A DNA stretch of 63,564 nt, counting the filler, from Kipferlia bialata (Eukaryota): NCBI GenBank assembly GCA_003568945.1. It is 4 parts of 4 records of this genome, joined end to end, with 100 filler letters (N's around TTAATTAATTAA, not from the genome) between each part and the next. Parts side by side here need not be neighbours in the genome. Positions count along the whole stretch, not along the records: positions 23,934 to 47,549 come from BDIP01000251.1; 3 more parts are not named here. One strand, written 5' to 3'. Positions 21,955 to 47,649 of this stretch are shown in pieces; the stretch's first letter is position 1; each line of letters starts with the position of its first letter. The notes beneath the pieces were generated by a model. That model did no database searches, had not been told where the DNA came from, and was given only the letters and a program-made list of their open reading frames with translations. A program made the translations under genes and the position numbers.

Positions 21955-23833
21955 ACCTCCGTCTCCCTGACCATTCAGCTTCACCCATGTCCTCTGCGGA
22001 CGTGTCTGCCTCGAATTCCTTTTCTCTCTCCCCCAAGGTAAAGCGGTTCCTTCTCTCTTCCCCCCCCCCCCCCCTTCCCCTCCCACGACTCCTCATTGTC
22101 TCTTCCTGGTTTAGTGTACCACTTGTTCTACGTGCCCCTTCTGTCTATCCCCTCTATTACCAGGTTGGAAAGGAGGTCCCCTTCCAGTTTGTTGCGGCCT
22201 CTCTCCCTGCGTCCCCCGCCTCCCTCAGGCTCCGTATACCCAAGTTCTTCTCCAAGATGGAGAGGGAGAGAGAGAGAGAGAAGGATACCCCCTCCATATC
22301 ACCCTGCCTCACTAAGAGAGACCGTCAGATTGGGAGAGAGAGGGAGAGGGGCCGGGTCTCTGGTGATACCTCTGTCCTCGCCTCCCCCCTGTCTCCATCC
22401 AAGTCAAGGAAGGACTCGTTCAGAATCAACCCCAGGGTACGAGAGTGTGCATGTATTGACTACATGATCCCCCTCCCCCCCCCCCCCTCTCATCCCCATT
22501 ATCCATCATGTCAACCCCCCCCCCACTCTCACCCCAGTCCCCTGCCCACTCCCTTGGTGCCCTCTTCACCCCATCTGAGGTGTGCACTCGGGAGGAGTTC
22601 GTGCGCCGCACCCTCTCCCCTATGCCTGGGGCTGAGGGGGCTGAGGGGTGTGTGTGCAGCGGCAAGGGAGAGAGTGGGTACTGCACCCTGGATGGGGGTG
22701 AGGGTGAGGAGTGGGTCAAGTGCACTGTTGTGTTGTATAGTCTCTCCTCTACTTTCCCATACTCCCCCCTCCCCTCGTATCAAACATTGACTGCATACCT
22801 TGCCCCTTACCACCAACCATCTCACTCTGATTTAGTGCCCCCCCCCCCTTCTCTCTCTCATCTCAGTTTGACTCTGTGTGTCCAAAGAGATGGGACGGAG
22901 CCATAGGAGCGGAGGCAGCCCGTGCCGTTCAGTCAAAGGTAAGCTCTCTCTCTCTCTCCCAGTCTTACTCTCCCCCTACTCTCTCTCTCCTCCTCATCCC
23001 AGGACAAGACCGATGGCATGAACCGGACTGTCCACCTGATTGGGGGTGGGGATAGTCTCTCAGGCACTGTCAGTCTATCAGACACTGCAAAGAATGTGGT
23101 CTCTGCCCCTGCCTCTGCTGCCTCTGAGAGGATAGATGCCCAGGACAGTGTGTCTGTGGCCAATGATAGGAGGGTCAGACACGCACTCCAGCGCATAGCA
23201 TGTCAGGTAGAGTATAATAACGCCTTTCACATTTGGTGACCTATAGTTTATATATATATTTGCATTCCTCATACTGTCATTGAGTTTCATATATTCACCC
23301 TAGGCACACCTGGTACCCACCGAAGAGGCCGCATCTCTCTCTCTGACAGATCTAGAGGCACTTGTGCCCCCAGACGTGGTCAAGGAGGTGAAGGTGAGGA
23401 ATATAGAGATAGTCCTGATTCAACCCAACTGCCTCGCTTCCTCCCTTTCCATTCTCACGCTAGGGGTGCTACCTGGCCGTCAGGTCCAACCCCCGCACCT
23501 GGTGCAGAGACAACCCCAAGGTTGGGAATTTAGTGTAGACACCAATACCATATACTGACTGTAGCATAGTAGAGTGTGGTACAGTATCATTTCCACACCT
23601 TTGACCCAGGATGCTGCCTCCTCTCGCATAGGGGCAGCAGAGTTCAACAGGAGGGCCCGATGGCTGGAGCAGAACCTCATGGTGAGGAGAGGTGTCTCAC
23701 ATTATATACTCCATGTCTTTTATCAGTTGGCTCATCTTATGACAGGTCCTGGACACTCAGTTTGGCCCCCGTATCCTCGCCTTCCAGTCCACTCTGGCCG
23801 AGGTCGGCAAGGTGTTCCTCGCAATCACCCCAC
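21553..23833 (+). CDS. 3'-truncated gene; paralog of the N-terminal tail of the divergent dynein-heavy-chain-like gene at 25014-47314
   Basis: Starts MDDLQLELEELKAIR. Contains LRLRIPKFFSKM, EEFVRR, GYCTLDGGEGEEWVK and PDVVKEVK|GCYLAVRSNPRTWCRDNPK|DAASSRIGAAEFNRRARWLEQNLM|VLDTQFGPRILAFQSTLAEVGKVFLAITP. These match minus-strand exons at 43763-46240 with the same intron positions. The contig ends mid-exon. Confidence 0.75.
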
Positions 23834-23933
23834 NNNNNNNNNNNNNNNNNNNNNNNNNNNNNNNNNNNNNNNNNNNNTTAATTAATTAANNNNNNNNNNN
23901 NNNNNNNNNNNNNNNNNNNNNNNNNNNNNNNNN
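23834..23933. other. Artificial contig spacer (N44-TTAATTAATTAA-N44)
   Basis: The same 100-nt construct recurs three times; TTAATTAATTAA has stops in all six frames. Confidence 0.97.
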
Positions 23934-24999: not shown

Positions 25000-25013
25000 C
25001 CTCTCTCTGTCCC

Positions 25014-28000
25014 TCACAGGATGTCGAAGAATGCCCCTGCACTTGTCCAGTACTCTGCCCCCACCACATCACAGAGTGTGACATGGCCTAGTTCTCTACC
25101 ATCCAGCATGACAGGTATGGACGCATACCCACAGACTGGGGTGCCTAGGAGACCGGGCACACCTCCCTCATCCTCACTGGCATCACTGTTCTGGGGGTGA
25201 GGACACAACATAGTATACGCGAATAGTGAGTATCGTGTAGAATATCAATACCTCAATGCTGGCCTCTGATACCGTAGTCTCCCTTGACACCATACTGCCC
25301 TCCAGTGACAGGGCCCCCTGCTCCTCCGACATGACATGCACATACACATCCACAGTGTCACTGGGTATGAGGAAGGATGCTGCCACTGGGTGGGTGAGGT
25401 CAGCACTCAGTCTGAACCCATGCACCCTGGCACGCAGTATGGCCACTGGTGCCTCCCTATGATCTGCACCCTCAGTGGGGGGCTCCACAGACAGGGCCAG
25501 CTTGCAGTCACAGTGTCTGGAGGGTAAGTGTATACGGTACTATTGGACCAACACAATTCCAGAGCACGTAATACCCATATACAATCTATGTATCACAAAC
25601 CTGATTCCTTCTGTGTTGGCGAATAGCACAGTGAGGCCTAGCAACAGGGCCTTCTTAGTGTGACAAGCAAAGGCCGACACGTCACAGGGAGACTCACACC
25701 AGTCACAGACCGGGTTGGCCATGAGGAAGTCATGGATCTCAGCCTGAGGGTTAGTACTTGACACTATGCATAGTGTATTCCCATCATAGTATAACAATGG
25801 TAAAGTTGCGTACCTGCTCTCTCTGTGAGTTCTTTGTCCTGTCAGGCTCTATTGACGTCATGGCATCTAATAGAGTGTAGCTGTAGTACTCCATGCTGTC
25901 CGTGCTGTCACTAGAGGCAGCACTCGAGGGGCGCTGCACTTCCATGCGGGCTGTGCTTCCCTTGGATGCCTTCACTGCAGTCTGGACAAGGTTGCCCAGG
26001 TCAGAGCGCAGTCTCTCACACTCACTGGGTTAGAGGGATACAAACACTTCCATCATATGAATATGTATATATACTGACCTTGGTATGTGTCTGTGGTCCT
26101 GCACACTCTGTATACCATACGTCTCATAGGAGGCACACCGGTGGCCATCTGTGCTCAAGGCAGTGTGCTGTCTGTCCACTAGTGCCTGGGGGGTGAGTAT
26201 AGTGTCACAGGTAGTGCATATACATCACCAGGGTGATATGCCGTATATCATACCTTTACATCTGACACCGGCTCTACTATTGCAGTCTGCTTCAGATGCT
26301 TGGCATCCAAATAGAACAGGGCAATGCGGTACTCCCCATACTCGGCCTGAGAGTAAGTGACATGTAAGTGACGTAAAGTGACAATGCAAGGGAGTCAAAG
26401 AGTGTTGTGTGAACAATCTGCGTACCACATGATCCATAGCCTTCTTCAGTCCCGGGGACTGTCCGATGGCTATCCTGAGGGCATTCTTCATCTTGAGCCT
26501 GGCATTAGTCACATCAATACAATATAGAAAATGGATACACATTCTTTGCATACCTGGCAACTGATGCCGCTGAGGATGCCACCGACACCTGGCTGTGGTT
26601 GGAGGGTGCTATGGAGGGGGGGCCTCGGCTCATGGCCACACTTCTCTTGGACGCGTTGGTCTTGCAGGTGTGGCTGGTCATGCCTGCTAGTGAGTTACTG
26701 CATCACTATACATATAACTATACATATATACATATATGCATATATATCGCCACACCTGTTCTGTTACTGCCACTCCCGTTCCCACTGTTGACGTCTATCC
26801 CTGCCCACTCTGTCAGCTGGTGTCTCCAGCAGTGCTGGCACTCGCCTACAGGGTAAGATAGAGATAACGATATCATATGAGTATACAATAGTCACATCCT
26901 CATATCGTGACCATGGGGTATGAAGTAATGACCATACCTGGCAGCTCTATCTGCACCGGCATTGTGTGTGACACTGGCCCACTGTAGCATATGGTATCAG
27001 CCATCTGCCTCAGATACCGGTGGGTCACAGACACAGACAGGGGGAGGGGGGTGCCTGCGGTCAGAACTTTCAAGCTATACCAAAGACATCAATGAATATA
27101 TCGCCAGTATACTACTAGTCTAGGGTACTACGGTGTCTGTACCTGCTGTGATTGTATCCTGCCAGGTGAATGCTGCAAAGTATCCAGTCGAGGCACGGGT
27201 TTTGCCAGTCGATATGAGGCCTCGGAGGGAGTTCTCCTGAGGGGTCAGGGAAACACTATTGAAGACACTAACTCATAATACTCTCGATACCTGCCCGACC
27301 AGCTGTATCTCTCCCTCCCGTGCGGATAGTCTCTCCTGTACCAGTGCCCCCTGAGGCTGTACAGTGTCTGGTATGGTGGAGGGCAGGGTGAGGGCTGAGA
27401 AGGAGGAGTGCTGGGGGTCCCCAGAGACAAGCCTGAGGGTGAGGTTCTATTGGTATGTATATTCATAGATCACTACTATTCATCTTTCAGCCTGCCACTG
27501 ACCTTGGTGCTGGTAGGGTCTTGGCACCCCTCAGTGTCAGCAGAGGAGCGTCATACAGCTGGGAGGCATCCTAGGGTGAGGGAGAGGGGAATGACACGAA
27601 GAGATAGGTAACAACAATGGGGTTACCACTGATGTGACAACATGTGCATGTAACAGTACATGTCTATCCCCACCTGTCCATAGTGGTTTAGGAAGTGGCT
27701 GAGTGTGACTATCTGTCTGATGCAGAGAGAGACCCCAACATCAGCATCCATGGGAGATGACTCTGTGGACAAGGGATGGTACTGCCTCTGGGTAAAGGTT
27801 AGCACGGCACCTGCGATGATGCGTCTCATCCTGGAGGTGTAAGGTCACTGACTATATATAGCATATACACATTCACATGCGTATAGATATATATACCTCT
27901 CACTGAACACCGGACTGACGTATGCCGGCACTGCATTGCATGAGGTTGTCAGGAAGTGGGGTGTGTGGGACAGACCCTCCAGAGTGACTGGGGGGATCTT

Positions 28001-29579
28001 ATCTGGGTCAAAGAGAGAGAGAGAAAGATACAGAGAGAAGAGTCAAGGGGAGTAACGCACCAAATGCCGCCCTAATGGGGCTTGTATCCTCTGCGACGCA
28101 TAGGGTGGCCACTGCTGTCTGTAGTATATGGGACAGGACAGGACCAGGGGGGGTAGGGGGGTCAGTGCTGGTGTCAGAATCATATCTATGATATGTATAC
28201 AATACCACACTTACCGGCTAGGTCTCTGCATGAGTACTATGAGTCTCATGGGCTGATGGAGACGAGGGTCCTTCAGCTTCAGAGCAGCAATGTCACTGAA
28301 GTGCACGATGGCAACCCTGACAGTCAGTGAGAAGTCTAGCGTAACCACGTGAGGGTGGGTTATTGACCACAAGGAACTGATTGTCCAGTCCACCCACCTT
28401 TCAGCTGGCATTCCCCTATGGAGTCCAAAGAGGGGCTGGTGACCAATCTGGATATGAGTGACTAACAACGAGAAGACAATATGGTATCACTAAAGTCTAC
28501 AACGTAATGTAACTTCTAGTGCCCTCCATACCTCCACTAGACTCCGCACCACATGTGTGAGTGTGTCTGTGTGGTAGGGATGGGACACAACAGCTATCGC
28601 AGTCTGTTGGCTGGACTGAACAAGGGAGGTGACTACAGAGCGAATGTCAACCTAGAGGATAAGGTGCAAAATGAAATTGACGCCGAGAGGATAGTAAGTA
28701 GGTTATTGTATACATAGATTCAAAAGAGTCCTCACCTGCCCCTGGGGTATCTTGAGTGCCAGAGAGGTACGTGCACTCTCCAGTGCATGAGCTTCTCTCT
28801 TCTTCTCTGCACCCAGCATGCCCAGACCAGACGACATGGCACGGCACCAGGCACCAAGCTACGCGGTTAGTCACAGTTTGAGAGTATTATGTATTGATGT
28901 GATACAATAGCCATACCGATGTGAGGGCTGCAGCTGGGTTCAGACAGCAGAGGGCACCTAGCTGAAGAAGGACTGTTCTGTGGTGAGATATACATACACA
29001 GAGACCAACCTGTAGTATAAAATAATTGATTGTAAGACACATACTGCAGTCACCTGTCCGACACCGATGTCCCCAGTATCTCTGGCAGCTTCAGTTTCTT
29101 CCTCGCCTTCCTGCCCTGCAGCACCTGCTCTCTCTTGGACGTGCCAAGGAAGGAGTAGAGAAGGTAGATGCCTGAAGTTAAGAGAACAGGGTGAGGTAGA
29201 TATGGCCATGATACTGGAATATAATAATGAATATGGCTGATTGGATATAACACGTATCCCATACCTGCGTCGATGTCTGTGACCAGTAGAATGGCATCGG
29301 CAAAGGCCTTGTCAGTGACAACCAGTCCCTGAGGGTGAGCGATAGAAAGTGACACAGATACATACCCATCAACCCCTTCGAGTACTACTAGAACAGTACA
29401 GCACAGCACTGTATATATACACACACAATACCTCCATCAACCCCTTGTATGCAGGTGCTACTGCCTCCAGCACAGCCACTCTCCTCAGGGCAGAGGCAAG
29501 GACAGGGTACATGGACAGGGGGGAGGACCTGGGGTTAACAGAAATAGTATATACAATAGGTATGACAGACTTGTAGATC

Positions 29580-38600: not shown

Positions 38601-41600
38601 AAAATATGCCAAGTACTAAACAAGAAGCCGCACATGATGAGTGACCCCGTGTGCATCGCCCACAGCATAGTGCTCTCAATGGCCCTGGCCCTGACAGGTG
38701 AGTGGTGTATGCATATAAGAAGTGATACACATATGATGCGTATTTGAATACACACCTAGCAGTGATTGACGCTGCATACGTGGACCCGACATCTCTCTGC
38801 ACAAAGACGGCTATGCTCCTCAGGGTCTCAAAGAAGAGAGGGGGCAGGGGGAAACCAGCGTCGCCAGCAGGACACTTACTCCTGTCAACCATCCTAAGGG
38901 GTGGGTGGGTGGACATACTATATACGTATACTGTCTGGTGATGGGATATATATATGTGTGTGGGTGTCACTTACATGTCTGGTGAGACCTCACTGGTCCA
39001 TGAGTTCATGGCCCTCTCACAGGCATCAAGCCTCGTCTCAACCTGGGATGTCAGCAACACATCGTGTAGAAACAGCACATGATTACATCCAATACCTGTG
39101 CCTCCTCGTCTGCTGTATCCACCATGTCCTGTATCACTGTCAGCTGGTCTAGACCTCCTGCCAGCACTAGGTCACTGGGGGACACCTGGCCAAGCCTGAG
39201 GGGGTGAGTAACAAGAGAGATACACATCGTGTAGGTATCACTACCTGAGCAGCGGGAGCCCTGTTCTGCTCTCCAGCACATCCAAGTGCCTTGTGTGGAG
39301 GGAGGGGGAGCATAGCAGTGAGACCAGCTCTACGATAGGACGCAGCTCCATCTGAGTGTTAGAGATAAATGGTATGGCTAGCAATGAGAGGTATATACAT
39401 ATATATATATATGTGTACATGCACCCACCTGCTTCCTATGTACAGCATGGCAGAAGGTGAGGTTGGGGGGTATACCCCTGGCCTGGCTGGGTTGAGCAGG
39501 GGTGATATCCACCTGGGCCTTCATGGCCTTGACACACCTGGGAATTAGGAAGGGATACACAAATACATATATATATGCCAATTTTGTATATATAGTATTC
39601 CCTCCCCATACCTGTCCATTCTGTCGAGTAGGTCTGACACCCCTGTTGCATCCTGTTCTGTGACAGGCACAGAGGCCAACAGCAGCTCAACGTCACAGGC
39701 CTCTCTCAACAGAGTCATGCTACTGAGGGTAAGGCAAGGGCAGAACAAAACCTATAGAATGCAATATCCTAGTGTGGTATCTATGAGTACCGTAATACGA
39801 CATACCTGTGTATCTGCTGGGGGTCCCCAGGTATACTGGAGAGATCAGATGTCACAGTGACCCCCCTCATCTCCAGAGACTCAGCCCAGGAGTGTATCAG
39901 AGACACGCCGCATCTGGTGGCGGATATCAGCTGGATCAGCTCCCTCAGTGCCTCCTCAGGAGACACACAGCTGGGGGTCAGTATACAGGTGATATGGAGT
40001 ATTAAGATATATGATATGTCACACTAGGGTGGTAGGGGTAGGGTATATACTAATCTGATACCTCTTCTCCTCTGGTCTGGCATAGGGTGCAAAGCGAGGC
40101 AGGCACTCTGTCTTGGGGTGGTGGGTGTCAGTGCACTGCCCGCATTGATAGGCACGGGGGGAGAGGACAGTATCACCCTCGTGGGGTACCATATCCATGG
40201 CCTTGGGTGAGGATATCAGTATAGAGAGAGAGAAAAACCAAATATTATATTAGTGTACCTTTGTGAATGCCTCACTGAATGCAGCAGCGGCAGGGTTAGT
40301 GCTACTGGTGACATCACAGGGACTGACCCTGGGCACAATGGGGAGACCCGTGTAGGACTGAAGCGTTAGTGTAAGTCTCAGACCATTAGGTGGTACGAAT
40401 CAGTATAAGGATTTGGTATTATCAATGCATAATAGTACCTCAAATGCCACTAGGAGACCAGCTGAGCTCATCAGAGTGCCTGCCAGAGCATCGGTGTCAG
40501 CCATGCCTGAGGTGAATGGTGAGGTATATATGCATACATACAACCAATGAACTATCAAACAACACTCCAACCAGTACCACAGTCAGAAAATAGATGTACC
40601 TATCATACTCTGTGTTCTGGCGCACAGAGAGCTGAATGCCCTCTCTGGTGGAAATGTCATGTCAGTGAAGAGGAAGGCAAGGTCCTTGTGTTCCTTGGAC
40701 CCCCTCCTGGGTCTAGACCCGTCCCTGGGGAAGAGTGTGTCCATGGATCCGTGAGATAGGTGGGTCACTCCCTTGCACCGGTCCAGGACCTCCCTATGGT
40801 GAGTGCACAAGAGAGGTATAGGGATAGAGTAGGGGTAGTGATAGTACTATAGTATATACACACACCCACCTTGCCAGGGTACTTGTCCACTCTGACAGAC
40901 ACTTCAACTGGTGACACATGGAGTTGTGGGCGGAGAGGCGGGAGGCCTCAGTTGCCTGGAGAGTCAGAGAGAATACCCATATGCACAGTACAGATTCCTG
41001 GATCACATGCCAGAACCCACATACAGAGTGTACATGAACCTTGGGACAAAGAGAGACGTATAGACAGACTACTAGAATAATTGGTATGTCCCTACCTGGA
41101 GGGTGTCCATGAGGCCTGTGACAAAGTGTGATATCCTTGCCATGTCACAGTGGGTGTCACAGGGTATGGGGCAGCCTGCAGAGAGGAGGGTGTCGCAGTA
41201 CCCGTCCAGCAGTGCTAGGCACTCCTCCCACTGGGGCACTGCATCCACGGCACTTGATAGCAGGGACTGGAGCTTGGTACTGGCACTAGGAGAGAATACC
41301 CCTACAGAGATGGTCTGGCATTAATAATCCGTTACATACTTGTAGAACACTATATACCAATATGAATACCTCCATCATCCGCCTTGCCCCTCTGAGCACA
41401 CACCCCACTGCCCCAGAGAGTATGTCCACATGCACCCGCTGAGACTTGGCCCGGTATCCGTCTAAAACAGATTGCAAAGAGACCTGAGGTCAGAGACGTA
41501 AATGCAGGTAATATCTGATACAGAAGACACCCCCTCACCTTAATCTCGGCTAAGTGTGTGACAGCCCCCCCGTAGTATGCACTCTGGGGCAGGCCCTGTA

Positions 41601-42976
41601 TGAATCCCTGGTACTCCTCTATCAGCTCCTGCTCAGTGGAGAAGAGACCCACATGGAGAGCACACTCCACCGCTGTGGGTGGGTACACACACATCTCAGG
41701 CAGCATGTCACACTCACTGTCACAGGCAAAGACTGACAGGATCTCGTCGTATGAGGAGAACCCAGCGATGTCCTCTAGGGTCTCTGTGTCTAGGCATACA
41801 CTCTGGTTGAGTCGGGTCTCTAGGGTGCGGGTTATTGCCTCCCTCACCTCGAACCCATGCCCAAATAGGTCTCGGTAGGCGTCGCCTGGGGGTCAGAGAG
41901 GGCTTCAGAATACCAACTCGAGGTAGTATAGTAGTTGATTGATACAGACATACCGATACAGACATTCTGATTCACCCACCTAGAGCCTCCTCCGGCCTCT
42001 CTAAGCATACAGTAACAGGAGGTGTATAAGTGGTGCGGTGCAGCATTGGATGTAAAGTGCCTGTCCACGTGTGGAAGAGGGTGATCAAGCCCCTCATACC
42101 GTCCTGTTTGATAGTACCCCACTCCTCAGGGGTGAATGACCCATCGACTGTCCACACCCCCTCTGCATCCACTGACGCAGACACAGGCAGCTCATACACA
42201 GGGTACAGGGGGTAGGGGTGGATATCCACAGATAGGGGGGTGGTGCGGGTAGCCAGGGTGACCACCTTGGAGGCGTGGTTACCCTGGGGGTCAGTTAAGT
42301 CATGAGGTATGTCTAGGAGCACTGCGGCAAGAGAGGCCCAGTCAATATATATATGGTATACATATTTACAATATTATATATATACCTGGAGGTACCCCCA
42401 TACATCCAGACTGACATCTGTGCTGGAGTGGTCACTGAGGGTGGGCACATCATCACTCTCCACCTCTCCCAGGGTGAGGCATGGAGGTGTGAGGTAGTGC
42501 CTGACGTTCATCTGTTCCAGTGCTGTCTGCCAGGGTGTGAGGAAGAGACGCCCAGTGGTCTCTGGGGGGTGAGGGAGGGGACATAGGCAACATGTGGTAT
42601 CCAAATACACTATGCTGGTAATATATATAGTATCTACCTAGGCATGCCGCAGCCATTGTATCCAGCATGGTCAGCAGTCTAGTGGCCCTGACCGTCACAT
42701 CAGCCACCACGTGCATACGCACATCGGCCCTATCAACGTGGATGCCCTGCCATTAGTCAGAGTATATATGCACATATTACCGACTATGAGAGAGAGTATA
42801 TGAACACAGAGTATGGCCGCACATCAGACACACCTCTATCCTCCCTAGCACTCTCTTCCGCTCCCCCCCCGTGAGCATCTCCCTCATCTGCCTCCTCTCG
42901 GCATGGGACACAACATCATCCACGCGGGTGTCAATCTCCTGAGGGTAAGGTCAACATATATATACTGTATATACAT

Positions 42977-43025
<49 letters not shown>

Positions 43026-46000
43026 TATATCCACTTGAATCCACACATCATCCACGCGGGTGTCAATCTCCTGAGGGTAAGTATTATACACAATGCATAT
43101 ACCCATGCATATATCCATCCACACGCGTGTCAATCTCCTTGCGGTGATGTCAACACTGTTACATAGAGCACATTTGTATATACATGTATTATACTCCAAT
43201 ATACCTCCGAGAGACTGGCTGAGAAGCACTGGCTGATGCCTGTCCTCACCACGTCCTCTAGCAGAGACCGTATACACTCTGCGAACCCTCTGTTGGTGGC
43301 ACATGACTCCAGCATGTTACGCTCTGTCAGGGCAGGGGGGATGTCGGGGAGGTCGAGGAGAGACCCACAGGAGAGCTCGTGTCTGGAGGTAAGTTCAGTA
43401 TATATATAGCTATAGCGCTAGACCTTAACACATGATGCTAACTAGTGTACGAATCCTTCCCCTGATTCTGCCTAACAGAGAACGCGATATACACATATGA
43501 GAGTACGACTAGATAAACACTACCCCGAGCCTGACCATCGCAAACATTAGAAGAAGAATACAACTGAATGAATATGTGTATATATGCATGTATGCATACC
43601 TGACCATCACAAACATGGCCTTGAGGGCATCGGGGTTCATGATGGCACTCTGGGGGTGAGGAGGAGGCAGCGAGTACTATAGGGGTCAATATGACAGCGC
43701 ACCAACCATCCAACAGCACCAGGATGCATGGTAACACAAAGTATGGTATACTAAGACTGAACCTGAGGTGTGACAGCCAGCATCACCCTGCTGACATCGT
43801 GTAGGGTACCCATGAACTCAAGTATCCTGGGGCCAAAGTCACGGTCTAGAATCTGAGGGGGTGAGCAATCACGATAGAAAAGATGATTGAGAACAGGGTA
43901 TATGTATGTACGTATATCACTCACCAGGAGGTTATCGTTGAGCCACTTGGCCCTCCTCACAAACTCCTTATGGCCTATGCGGGTATCCCTGGCGTCCTGG
44001 GGTGAGGGACAGTACACCCTTAATATATATACACAACACCAGAGATAGAGAGGAACATATATATCCATCCTAGATGACAGCCGACTATATACTGTAAAAG
44101 TCACCATCTGGTGTCTGGTTCATGGGAATCTAGCATATTACCCACCCTAGCACTGTCTGACACACTGGACTGGGGGGCAGAGTGGACGGCGAGGAGGGAG
44201 GTCTGGGGGGTCAGAATGAATACATGATTGAGATACAAAAAACCCAATACACCTTACAGACAGTACATACCTTAATCTCTGTAACAACCTCCTCAGGCAG
44301 TATATCCGCCAGGTCAGAGAGACTCTCTCCCTCTCCCTCTACGTAGTCTACAGAGTCACTATTCACAGCGGGTCCAGACAACAGCCCAGCCAGACCCGCC
44401 ACCCTACCCAGCACCTCTCTCTCCCTCTCCCGGCGAGCCATGGATGCTCTGTCCACTGCTCTCTCTCCATCCCCCTCCTCTGTCTCTGTGTATGCATAGT
44501 ATGATGTCATGTCCTGACTGTCTGCCAGACTGAGTATGTCCATGGAACTGTTGAGGTGATAGGCACTGTGGGAGAGCTTGTCCCGGAGGGTGCACTCTCT
44601 CTCTCTCTCTTCCTCTTGTCCTCCCACAGTGCCTATCCTGCTCACACAGGCAGCGGCATCGAGCTGGAGTGTCAGAGTGGGATATACTTAATATATATAC
44701 ACATAGAGGGAATGCGCCACACCCTCACTTGGAACAATACTAGATTACAGGAACACAGTTGTTCAGATCCCCCTACCTGCAGCACCGTCTCGAGTCCTAT
44801 TGCCCCCCCTGAGCCATGCACTCTAGAGGGTGCAGGCACATAGCACGAGGAGTGCAGCCTGAAGGTGTCCTGGGGGGTTAGACAGGAGAGGACATAAGAG
44901 ACACAGTATATGAGTATGGGTAGATATATGTAAATGAAGCATGAGGAGTGTAGCGTGAAGGTGTCTTGGGATAAGTCTAGAGAGATAGAGGGAGGACAGA
45001 TAGAGTAGAGCCCTCACCCCCTGTGCCTCTACAGCGACTGTGCTTGTGTGGCAGTCCCTGCTAAGTAGTCTGCACCGGACCCACTCGTCAGTCACACCTG
45101 GGTTAGTATAAAAAAGAAATATACATACAACCATAGATAGAGAGAGAGAGGGACAGAGGTAGGCTGAAAACTCGTCAGTCACACCTGAAAGGAGAGGTGG
45201 GAGATATATGTCAAATGTGTGTAAGTATATTATGTTGGCTCAAGACCATTTTGGGCATATATGTATTATTATTATACATATATATACATAGAAAAGATCT
45301 TACAACACCCCCACCTGCGTCGAGTGTACAGTACCCTGTCATCCCGTCCCCCTCCTCTCTCTCCTCCCCTATCGCATCATAGTCCTCATTGTCATCAAGG
45401 TGGGGCAGATTGCGCTCCACAAACTCCTGGCAGTGAGGTAACACATGGGTAAGAGAGAACTGTCACTCATGACCATTCATGACTTATCCATATATGAAAT
45501 GATGCACCCCGTGGATCTACCCCCTGCGATACCCAAACACACCCACAAATACAAATATATGTATAAATAGCATACACACCTGCAGAGAGATTGCCCCGCC
45601 AAAGGGACAGGACAGGTGCTCTGCAAAGGAAGGGGACTGGGGATGAGGGAGGTGGAGGGTAGAGACATGTGGGGAGGGTGATCAGAGAGTACACAGTCGA
45701 CACATACCCTGCGGCTGCACACACTGAACAACAGAAGCGCAAATACATAGATACCCAAGTATATATATATGTGGACATAATATAGTATATACATACCCTG
45801 CGACTGCACACAATGAGCTGTGATGATGGGCTGAAGAGTGGACTGGGTCTGTCTCTCCAGCCAGAGGGAGAGAGAGAGGCAGAGGGGGACTTGGACTGAG
45901 TGGCACTGCGGTGGTAGGCGTGGGGGGAGGCGGAGTGGGATATAGGAGGTATCACCCTATCAACCACATCATCCAGGGATGACTGGCTGGAGGGGTCTGT

Positions 46001-47314
46001 GCCTATGCTGTCTAGGGGTCTGATATGATGCCTAGTGGAGGGGGACTCACTAATGCTGCCATAGGAACTCCCTTCAATGGGGTCCAGTCTCTCCCTCTCT
46101 CTCTCTCTCTCTCTCTCCCTCTCCCTCTCCCTCTGGTCCAGTGGTATCAGATGTGCCAACTGCTCTGGTTGTTCATGGGTGTGGTGGCCCTTCCCTATAC
46201 CGTCCATCTTGGCTAGGAACTTGGGCACACGCAGCCTGAGGTTAGTATGTGTATATACAGAGAGACAGAGAGAGAGAGATACATACATATACACAGGTAG
46301 AGTGAGAGAACATAATATTATCATGGAACTTGGGCACGCGCTGCCTGGGGTTGGAAGACATATAGAGAGACAGAGGCATATATAAGCACACATAAAGAGA
46401 GAGAGAGAACATAAACATAAGCATATAAAGGTACTTCCGCACACGTAGCCTGCGGATAGTATTCAGATGGATAGATATCCACAGCTTACATGTATATACA
46501 CGTATAAATGTAATATACCGTGTGGAGGAATAGTGTGTGATGTTATACCTGACTGTGGGACTGCTGCCAAAGATATATATATAGAGAGACAGAGAGACAG
46601 AGACATCAGAGGGTATGTATAAACAGCATACATGCCATACCTGACTGTGGGACTGCTGCCAAAGATATACAGAGACAGAGACAGAGAGATAGAGACATCA
46701 GAGGTTATGTCTAAGCATACATGCCATACCTGACTGTGGGACTGCTACCAAAGGAGTGAGAGGTGGTGGACCTAATACCCTCTCTCACTCTCTCCTTGTG
46801 CTTTGCGAAGTGTGACCCTAGTACAGATTGGCTCCTGTTCCTTGGTCTCTCCCTCTCTCTCTCCCTCTCTCTGTCACCTCTCTCCCCTCTGTCTGCCAGT
46901 ATGGCTAGGGGAGAGGGGGTGGTCATAGAAGGAAGGGTGGAGTGCTGGGGTTAGTTGCATACAGTGTGTATATATATACATTGAGAGAGAGAGAGAGAGG
47001 GATGGATGGGCCATGGCTGGACTGGTGGAGGTCTGGGACTAGCAAGCATATATACATATAGGCAAGTATATATACATATATATATGTGGGTGTGAGAGGA
47101 TTACTCATTCATGTATATATATTCACCCCCCCCCCCCTTACTCATGCTCATACTCATTGACAGAGGTGACACCTCTGGCACCTTGTATACATAGTATGTA
47201 TATTAATATATATGTATACATATCTATACATATACAATTGGATGATACCTTAGTCATGCCCATTGACAGAGGTGACACCTCTGGCACCTTTGGTGCTCTG
47301 TCGCCTAGTATCTC
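25014..47314 (-). CDS. Highly divergent dynein heavy chain-like protein (DNAH1-like tail, degenerate AAA ring, no evident stalk), 5'-partial
   Basis: Collinear series of degenerate dynein landmarks. Tail: LPHLDDNEDYD, IQGLPQSAYYGG..EIKVSL. Linker: RRLSRQRLLDVLLDTD..LQNII, SMCVPGEMYVSLPHPV, EWCDRALAF. AAA1: TGSSIWFHKLCRLFG..D..M..EGTFVLL. AAA2: HPSEYQTPTEMGGTSEW, TMRCHLGMV. AAA3: TVGKS, VCLEDD. AAA5 start: WLYAGALPCVD..PFYDTEH. AAA6: LLQLGALCCLNP, HQPMRLIVL, DKIPQSLW, DVGVSLCIRQ..FLNHY. C-terminus: YASIPV..VTL..EYWTSAGAFFDIL-stop (25014). An in-frame splice across 43650-43762 joins the 43763-47314 exons to the rest. Confidence 0.75.
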
Positions 47315-47549: not shown

Positions 47550-47649
47550 NNNNNNNNNNNNNNNNNNNNNNNNNNNNNNNNNNNNNNNNNNNNTTAATTA
47601 ATTAANNNNNNNNNNNNNNNNNNNNNNNNNNNNNNNNNNNNNNNNNNNN
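47550..47649. other. Artificial contig spacer
   Basis: N-TTAATTAATTAA-N. Confidence 0.97.

What the first reader, a model, noticed from the sequence alone, without database searches (positions are those of the whole stretch)
25014..47314. Candidate pseudo-dynein: full-length, collinear but catalytically degenerate dynein heavy chain
Spliced minus-strand exons give a multi-thousand-residue protein with faint, correctly ordered matches to the tail, linker, AAA1-AAA6 and C-terminal domain of dynein heavy chains. Tail motifs (LPHLDDNEDYD; IRSLLEDVVRTGI; GLPQSAYYGG..IKVSL) recall DNAH1-class single-headed inner-arm dyneins. Dynein motors are normally highly conserved, but here nearly all invariant motifs are eroded while long exons stay open (e.g. 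~31076-32180, ~33450-34472). Inference: a non-motor scaffold or regulator built on the dynein ring, loosely analogous to animal DNHD1 but probably of independent origin. It could serve flagellar or feeding-groove architecture.
Basis: partly seen in the sequence, partly recalled or inferred. Interest (0 to 1): 0.88.

Follow-up and report, generated by a model that had tools for sequence, protein, structure and literature searches.

The report
Expanded family of engine-less dyneins
This is an intact, spliced gene for a 4,860-residue protein, one of at least 13 related genes in a free-living anaerobic flagellate, that likely descends from the dynein motor but is predicted to have lost its main ATP site and its microtubule-gripping foot, and so likely serves as a scaffold instead of a motor.

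Summary
An 82-exon minus-strand model gives 4,862 open codons with 81 of 81 GT-AG introns. One spliced RNA contig matches its 3' part. It belongs to a family of at least 13 genes, 21-56% identical; all 19 hits among 1.84 billion representatives are Kipferlia bialata proteins. Dynein ancestry rests on the linker (DHC_N2; profile match E 3e-11) and on low-confidence folds of paralogs whose best Foldseek matches are dynein motors. The ring itself is invisible to sequence profiles. AAA1, AAA2 and AAA4 have no conserved Walker A lysine. The stalk region is about 180 residues short, with no long coiled coil or room for a microtubule-binding domain. The DNAH1 origin could not be shown. Non-motile dyneins are known (DNAHX, DNHD1, DNAH12), and this scan noted some in other genomes, but I found no description of this family. 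Best reading: non-motor scaffolds with one nucleotide site. Location is untested.

The parts
25014..46944 (-). Whole gene model: 82 exons, 4,862 aa, degenerate dynein heavy chain; 5' end open (start codon not found, gap at 47550)
   Evidence: RNA contig for 25012-36600; paralog alignment
39847..46944 (-). N-terminal low-complexity segment and tail, aa 1-1314; 22-48% identical to KIPB_000659 in 200-aa bins; no DHC_N1 match; class of origin unknown
   Evidence: no match
38668..39846 (-). Neck/linker start (DHC_N2-like), aa 1315-1547
   Evidence: hhalign P 97.2%, E 3.3e-11, reversed control E 0.28; Pfam DHC_N2 in 7 of 7 paralogs scanned that span it, 3 above the curated cut-off
36225..37170 (-). 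Predicted AAA1 large domain, aa about 1895-2111; no Gly-Lys in the P-loop position in 9 of 9 rows; Walker B Asp-Glu pair not in place
   Evidence: strand/helix order in model m4296c29e4001 of paralog P0005; alignment
35505..35997 (-). Predicted AAA2 large domain, aa 2187-2351; no conserved P-loop lysine
   Evidence: VIA matches to AAA+ domains over model residues 300-462, best Z 7.5, rmsd 4.0, 124 aligned
34084..34472 (-). Predicted AAA3 nucleotide site: Walker A Lys2628 (codon starts at 34462), Walker B acid at aa 2683, invariant Glu2753 followed by Thr/Ser at the presumed sensor-I position
   Evidence: spacing to AAA1 and AAA2 fits canonical ranges; fold not resolved (pLDDT about 30)
32248..33390 (-). 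Presumed AAA4 large domain with a Ser-rich insertion; no conserved P-loop
   Evidence: spacing and by-eye assignment; Gly-Lys in 1 of 11 rows
31693..31969 (-). Predicted stalk stub: one 49-residue helix and two of about 20 residues, no microtubule-binding domain
   Evidence: model mdece002dc115 of paralog P0002; span and coiled-coil counts; VIA ranges
30404..31498 (-). Predicted AAA5 large domain (aa 3511-3682) and buttress hairpin (aa 3711-3779)
   Evidence: mapped to the window
27552..28651 (-). Presumed AAA6 region, aa about 4080-4300
   Evidence: the matching part of P0003 gives Dynein_heavy (PF03028) clusters as the three best ESM Atlas hits, score 0.77-0.78, a lead only
25014..25653 (-). 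C-terminal domain, aa 4699-4862
   Evidence: collinear but non-significant profile match to the dynein C-terminus, E 0.096; conserved in paralogs
22212..23832 (+). 5' part of a second family member, cut by the scaffold gap at 23834
   Evidence: tblastn E 4e-9 and 3e-7 to the window protein and P0004

Best explanation
The gene is intact and spliced and encodes a member of a lineage-restricted family that likely descends from a dynein heavy chain, is predicted to keep the tail-linker-ring body without a working AAA1 site or microtubule-binding foot, and would act as a non-motor scaffold with one nucleotide-binding site at AAA3. Shown: open 4,862-aa frame, splicing of the 3' part, at least 13 paralogs, linker homology, one conserved Gly-Lys-Ser/Thr, short span between the AAA4 and AAA5 anchors. 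Predicted: the AAA+ folds and their numbering. Inferred: no power stroke (AAA1 has no P-loop lysine) and no stalk grip on microtubules. Inferred: AAA3 binds nucleotide but probably does not turn it over, since no second Walker B acid and no arginine at the presumed AAA4 finger position is conserved. Inferred by analogy with DNAH12 and DNAHX: the proteins are anchored through their tails in or near the flagellar apparatus as spacers, or as partners for assembling and transporting working dyneins.
For: Linker: DHC_N2 43.5, 46.9 and 32.7 bits against a cut-off of 31.9 in P0006, P0013, P0010; hhalign E 3.3e-11 at the collinear place. A fold built from family sequences only gave dynein motor domains in every listed Foldseek row, best E 2e-5, 41 matches with E<=0.001. 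The top VIA row was yeast dynein, model 248-732 on residues 2919-3616 (Z 7.4, rmsd 14.8, 343 aligned). The second fold's top three Foldseek rows are dyneins (E 5.8e-4 to 1.5e-3), followed by Cdc48/NSF. P-loop spacing: about 295 and 366 residues in the P0005 model against canonical 279-314 and 326-373. Lys2628 is the only invariant lysine among 953 filled columns in 9 members. Stalk: 238-292 residues between the AAA4 and AAA5 anchors in 12 of 12 members against 453-484 in 20 of 20 canonical chains. Second-longest proline-free run 51 or less in 7 of 7 family rows tested against 72 or more in 20 of 20.
Against: Sequence profiles do not detect any AAA domain. Local and glocal hhalign, and a 10x10 domain matrix, were no better than reversed controls, and Pfam finds none of the ring families. 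Both models are of paralogs and of low confidence (pLDDT 45 and 38, pTM 0.33 and 0.26). Foldseek TM-scores are 0.07-0.20 with rmsd around 17-33 A for the dynein rows, and no VIA match reaches Z 8. AAA3L, AAA4L and AAA6 were not resolved as AAA folds. The AAA4 and AAA5 anchors for the stalk count were set by eye from recalled dynein motifs. Nothing here bears on location or partners.
Confidence: 0.62

Rival explanations
1. The family is an active ATPase or mechano-enzyme that runs on AAA3 alone and acts on something other than the microtubule lattice (a remodeller or switch).
For: AAA3 Walker A in 10 of 10, first Walker B acid in 11 of 11, and an invariant Glu followed by Thr/Ser (10 of 11) at the presumed sensor-I strand, in members only 24-54% identical. 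That Glu could be a relocated catalytic base (speculation).
Against: No conserved second Walker B acid. The presumed AAA4 arginine-finger position varies. The canonical chains fetched also have Asp-Asp, not Asp-Glu, at AAA3 in 19 of 19 matched, so AAA3 may have been bind-only before the family arose.
Confidence: 0.17
2. It is a chimera or a different six-AAA protein (midasin/Rea1 or RNF213-like) that carries only a dynein-like linker.
For: Only the linker is significant by sequence. Midasin chains appear in the VIA lists at Z 6.1-6.6, and Cdc48/NSF follow closely.
Against: Midasin matches cover one AAA domain only. Foldseek for the AAA4S-AAA5 part lists only dyneins. Helical hairpins sit at the stalk and buttress positions. 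The AAA6 part leads to Dynein_heavy, the C-terminus is collinear at E 0.096, and length and P-loop spacing fit dynein.
Confidence: 0.07
3. These are still microtubule motors whose motifs have merely diverged, or they bind microtubules by a new element.
For: Anchors and motif positions are partly set by eye, and the low-confidence models could misplace elements.
Against: No Gly-Lys at AAA1 in 9 of 9 rows. No pair of long proline-free helices between AAA3 and AAA5.
Confidence: 0.06
4. Decaying pseudogene or relaxed leftover.
For: Extreme divergence; several database members are partial.
Against: 4,862 open codons over 82 exons; spliced RNA without indels; five paralogs of 4,500-5,100 aa, and 75 invariant columns of 953 across 9 members. 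The partial records lie on short contigs.
Confidence: 0.03

Closest known systems
DNAHX / dynein-X (PMC11785096; parts 1-3 of 7 of the text read: abstract, introduction, results, part of the discussion)
   Same: Full-length non-motile heavy chain with altered AAA1 motifs and a disrupted stalk; proposed scaffold or transport role.
   Different: By the paper, DNAHX is animal-specific, still binds ATP at AAA1, has insertions in a retained stalk/MTBD and is placed next to outer-arm alpha. Here AAA1 has no P-loop lysine, the stalk is deleted, the ring is beyond sequence detection, and there are at least 13 genes.
DNHD1 (as described in PMC11785096)
   Same: Orphan heavy chain with poorly conserved AAA1 and presumed non-motile ciliary role.
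   Different: Single animal gene; no DNHD1-like protein came up in any of my searches.
DNAH12 (PMC11949491; passages read)
   Same: Lacks the microtubule-binding domain and is needed to recruit other inner-arm components.
   Different: A recognisable inner-arm DNAH family member; its ATP sites were not compared here.
Class-12 and orphan dyneins of Kollmar 2016 (PMC5100056; passages read)
   Same: Protist heavy chains with divergent motors; class 12 has a stalk without coiled coil or typical microtubule-binding site; 75 orphans, one diplomonad orphan with an unalignable tail.
   Different: Those tails mostly align to a known class. The survey (2016) predates the Kipferlia genome paper (2018). 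Its supplementary sequences were not compared.
Canonical axonemal dynein heavy chains (20 full-length from loci)
   Same: Overall length, linker, domain spacing, buttress, AAA3 Walker A.
   Different: 20 of 20 have the AAA1 Gly-Lys-Thr (they were fetched by that motif) and a full stalk.

Membership tests
Dynein heavy chain | Linker (DHC_N2) ahead of the ring | tested here: met
Dynein heavy chain | Six tandem AAA+ modules in one chain | tested here: inconclusive
   AAA2L and AAA5L match AAA+ folds at Z 6-7.5, AAA1L has the right strand/helix order; AAA6 is a lead; AAA3L and AAA4L by motif and spacing only; profiles negative
Dynein heavy chain | Buttress hairpin from AAA5 | tested here: met
   helices 659-691 and 709-727 of the P0002 model, pLDDT mostly 60-82 by 10-residue block; dynein-only Foldseek list
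Motile dynein | AAA1 Walker A lysine and Walker B Asp-Glu | tested here: not met
   0 of 9 rows; positions taken from a model with pLDDT 48-67 in this part
Motile dynein | Long coiled-coil stalk with microtubule-binding domain | tested here: not met
   no MT (PF12777) match in any member scanned
Motile dynein | ATP-driven movement on microtubules | not testable with these tools
   needs a gliding assay
DNAH1-class single-headed inner arm | Tail homology and tree placement with DNAH1 | tested here: inconclusive
   no tail signal; family unplaced on a stem of about 2.8-2.9 changes per site; tie at E 0.34 versus 0.36; my canonical groups were not labelled by class
DNAHX | Reciprocal-best relation to sea-urchin DNAHX; AAA4S insertion; retained stalk with insertions | tested here: inconclusive
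   no animal protein among 19 hits; stalk deleted, not extended; direct comparison with DNAHX not run
Midasin/Rea1 or RNF213 | Ring followed by a long linker with MIDAS or E3 modules, no dynein linker ahead of the ring | tested here: not met
   DHC_N2 lies ahead of the ring, and the chain ends about 1,340 aa after the AAA5 anchor (1,048-1,264 in canonical dyneins); the layout of these families is recalled

The most novel reading that the evidence does not exclude
Kipferlia has turned the dynein ring into a family of 13 or more off-microtubule machines that inverted the usual hierarchy: AAA1 and the stalk are gone and AAA3 is the only, possibly catalytic, nucleotide switch. They may build or gate a lineage-specific flagellar or groove structure such as the vane lamella or hair row.
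Probability: 0.2. Interest if true: 0.88.

Novelty: new variant of a known kind. Interest (0 to 1): 0.72.

Why it matters
Known non-motile dyneins are single genes that are still easy to recognise. Here a free-living metamonad keeps at least 13 large genes whose ring is invisible to BLAST, Pfam and profile-profile comparison, which suggests dynein inventories miss such proteins. Selective retention of AAA3 while AAA1 and the stalk decay is a natural experiment on what AAA3 does apart from motility. It gives a direct test: change one lysine and measure binding, stability and location.

Tried and rejected
Pfam on 25 window ORFs of the gene: no dynein family. PDB sequence searches with P0003, P0004 and profile A1: 0 hits. 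hhalign sliding windows, glocal segments, and a 10x10 domain matrix: only the linker significant; in the matrix the expected partner ranked first in 2 of 10 (the glocal half and all timed out). With 19 family rows still only the linker, of 19 segments. ESM Atlas with whole P0002: no usable hit. Tail versus 45 canonical chains and 11 groups: nothing. Linker tree (54 rows, 270 columns, quick method, cytoplasmic dyneins not sampled): family is one side of a branch (100), placement open. No whole genome is held, so canonical dyneins of the same organism were not counted. A viral-contig scan had no usable conserved stretch. A second VIA look stayed busy. Alignments A4-A6 were over the column limit and were not used for a PDB search. 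Rejected: my first by-eye AAA2 P-loop, which the model shows is the preceding helix; a GC-AG intron and several micro-exons of the first automatic model, removed after comparison with RNA and P0004. Literature: searches found no paper on this family, and the Kipferlia genome paper has 0 occurrences of 'dynein' in its main text. Supplements of that paper and of Kollmar 2016 were not read and could list these genes. UniRef already labels two members 'Dynein heavy chain linker domain-containing protein'.
Full report
Gene structure. The window is about 50% G+C with short introns and four scaffold gaps; no whole genome is held. A splice-site dynamic programme trained on the window gave an open minus-strand frame. 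After correction with RNA and paralog evidence the model has 82 exons from 46944 to 25017, 4,862 aa, no stop, and 81 of 81 GT-AG introns. Run X1, which the tool labels 'RNA?', holds a 10,197-nt contig that skips introns across 25012-36600 with no listed differences. The 15 joints shown (of 39) match the model, as do 12 of 12 coordinate checkpoints; two exon merges were made from that contig, so the check is partly circular. By the model the contig would end near 39016, which I could not lay. The start codon is not found; a gap lies at 47550-47649.

Family. Searches with window exons and paralogs returned KIPB_000121, 004798, 000318, 000659, 000871 and 003653 of Kipferlia bialata. A 976-position profile of the AAA4-AAA5 region against 1.84 billion representatives gave 19 hits with E<=0.001, and all 19 are named K. 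bialata. At residue 3400, 13 different sequences overlap including the window's, 21-56% identical to each other, so there are at least 13 genes. Five database members are 4,500-5,100 aa. The window protein aligns end to end with them. No search returned the window's own protein. That the window comes from Kipferlia or a close relative is an inference from these relatives, and from G+C and intron style matching PMC5874029 (passages). Whether other fornicate proteomes are in the library was not checked.

Is it a dynein? By sequence only the linker start is significant: Pfam DHC_N2 in 7 of 7 paralogs scanned that span it, three above the cut-off (P0007 was too long to scan), and hhalign of 20 canonical chains against the family at E 3.3e-11, collinear, with a reversed control at 0.28. 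The rest of the linker (E 0.1) and the C-terminus (E 0.096) fall at the right places but are not significant, and no AAA segment beats reversed controls. Structure adds more. AlphaFold2 on paralog P0002 with four family sequences only (pLDDT 45) gave dynein motor domains in every listed Foldseek row (best E 2e-5). Its top VIA row was yeast dynein, with residues 459-630 matching AAA+ domains (no Z of 8 or more). A model of the AAA1-AAA3 stretch of P0005 (pLDDT 38) shows AAA+ strand/helix order twice. Its top three Foldseek rows are dyneins, then Cdc48/NSF, and residues 300-462 match AAA+ folds at Z up to 7.5. The presumed AAA6 part of P0003 leads to PF03028 clusters at 0.77-0.78, below the tool's 0.9 bar. 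I put dynein descent at about 0.9.

Nucleotide sites. At the loop after the first strand of AAA1, 0 of 9 members have Gly-Lys; AAA2 0 of 9; presumed AAA4 1 of 11. The AAA1 Walker B pair is not in place. One Gly-Lys-Ser/Thr is shared by 10 of 10 members (window Lys2628). It lies about 660 residues after the AAA1 loop and 366 after the AAA2 loop in the P0005 model, within the canonical ranges of 605-686 and 326-373, which identifies it as AAA3. It is the only invariant lysine among 953 filled columns of 9 members. A hydrophobic strand ending in Asp/Glu follows 55 residues later in the window protein (canonical 59-67) and is kept in 11 of 11; the next acid is not conserved. An invariant Glu followed by Thr/Ser (10 of 11) ends the presumed sensor-I strand. 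The assignment of these strands is by spacing and recalled dynein anatomy, since the model is poor here.

Stalk. Between anchors at the end of AAA4L and the start of AAA5 there are 238-292 residues in 12 of 12 members against 453-484 in 20 of 20 canonical chains (anchors set by eye). Without those anchors: canonical chains have a second-longest proline-free run of 72 or more and 147-319 residues in coiled-coil-like windows between AAA3 and AAA5, whereas the 7 family rows tested (3 span the whole stretch) have at most 51 and 105 (a rough in-house measure). The P0002 model has a 49-residue helix and two of about 20 there. VIA maps 485 model residues on 698 of yeast dynein and 492 on 706 of another dynein chain. 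There is no room for a microtubule-binding domain.

Mechanism. From established dynein biology (recalled), movement needs hydrolysis at AAA1 and a stalk-borne microtubule-binding domain. Both appear absent, so the proteins are most likely not motors. The tail, linker start, ring and buttress are kept under selection, and AAA3 likely holds a nucleotide. By analogy with DNAH12, which lacks the binding domain and recruits DNAH1 and DNALI1 (PMC11949491, passages), and DNAHX, which pairs with another heavy chain (PMC11785096, parts 1-3 of 7), I favour tail-anchored scaffolds in or near the flagellar apparatus (0.62 for the whole statement). An AAA3-driven enzyme is the main rival (0.17). K. bialata has a vaned flagellum with a row of tape-like hairs (PMC11145212, passages); a link to these is speculation.

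Origin. The tail matched none of 45 canonical chains or 11 groups. In a quick linker tree the nine family rows form one side of a branch (support 100) on a very long stem with open placement. A PDB search with P0013 gave axonemal chains at E 0.34-2.4 in the linker, DNAH1 tied with outer-arm beta. The DNAH1 claim is neither shown nor excluded.

Novelty. Non-motile and orphan dyneins are known (PMC11785096; PMC5100056 passages). Seven literature searches found no account of this family; supplements were not read. Earlier notes of this scan describe pseudo-dyneins in three other genomes, and none resembles this family by sequence or place. Verdict: new variant of a known kind, interest 0.72.

Noticed in passing
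window 22212-23832 (+): 5' exons of a second member of the same family, facing the main gene's 3' end and cut by the scaffold gap at 23834; the rest is not in the window.
   Followed up: partly
introns at 46729-46236, 45796-45637, 45314-45098, 45017-44870, 43599-43472, 43204-42939, 29737-29529, 29431-29329: 8 of 81 introns hold near-exact copies of the neighbouring exon end or start, sometimes two, giving decoy splice sites. The RNA contig lengths fit skipping the copy at 29637-29620. Could be local duplication or assembly artefact.
   Followed up: partly
window about 46235-46205 (-) and 22212-22250 (+): A short basic motif in the otherwise low-complexity N-terminus is shared by the window protein, the second paralog and KIPB_000659; possible docking peptide.
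   Followed up: no
window 55894-58422 (+): Multi-exon kinesin gene, Pfam Kinesin E 5e-15 and 1.9e-6 on two exon-bearing frames: a neighbouring motor gene that remains easily recognisable.
   Followed up: no
window 5463-5547, 23834-23933, 47550-47649, 60332-60431: Scaffold gaps; at least the second and third carry an artificial AT-rich linker between two N runs, so continuity across them is not assured.
   Followed up: no
window aa 2109, 2392, 2562, 2576 and 3114 of the model: Arginines invariant across 9-12 family members, candidates for retained ring contacts; not mapped to structure.
   Followed up: no
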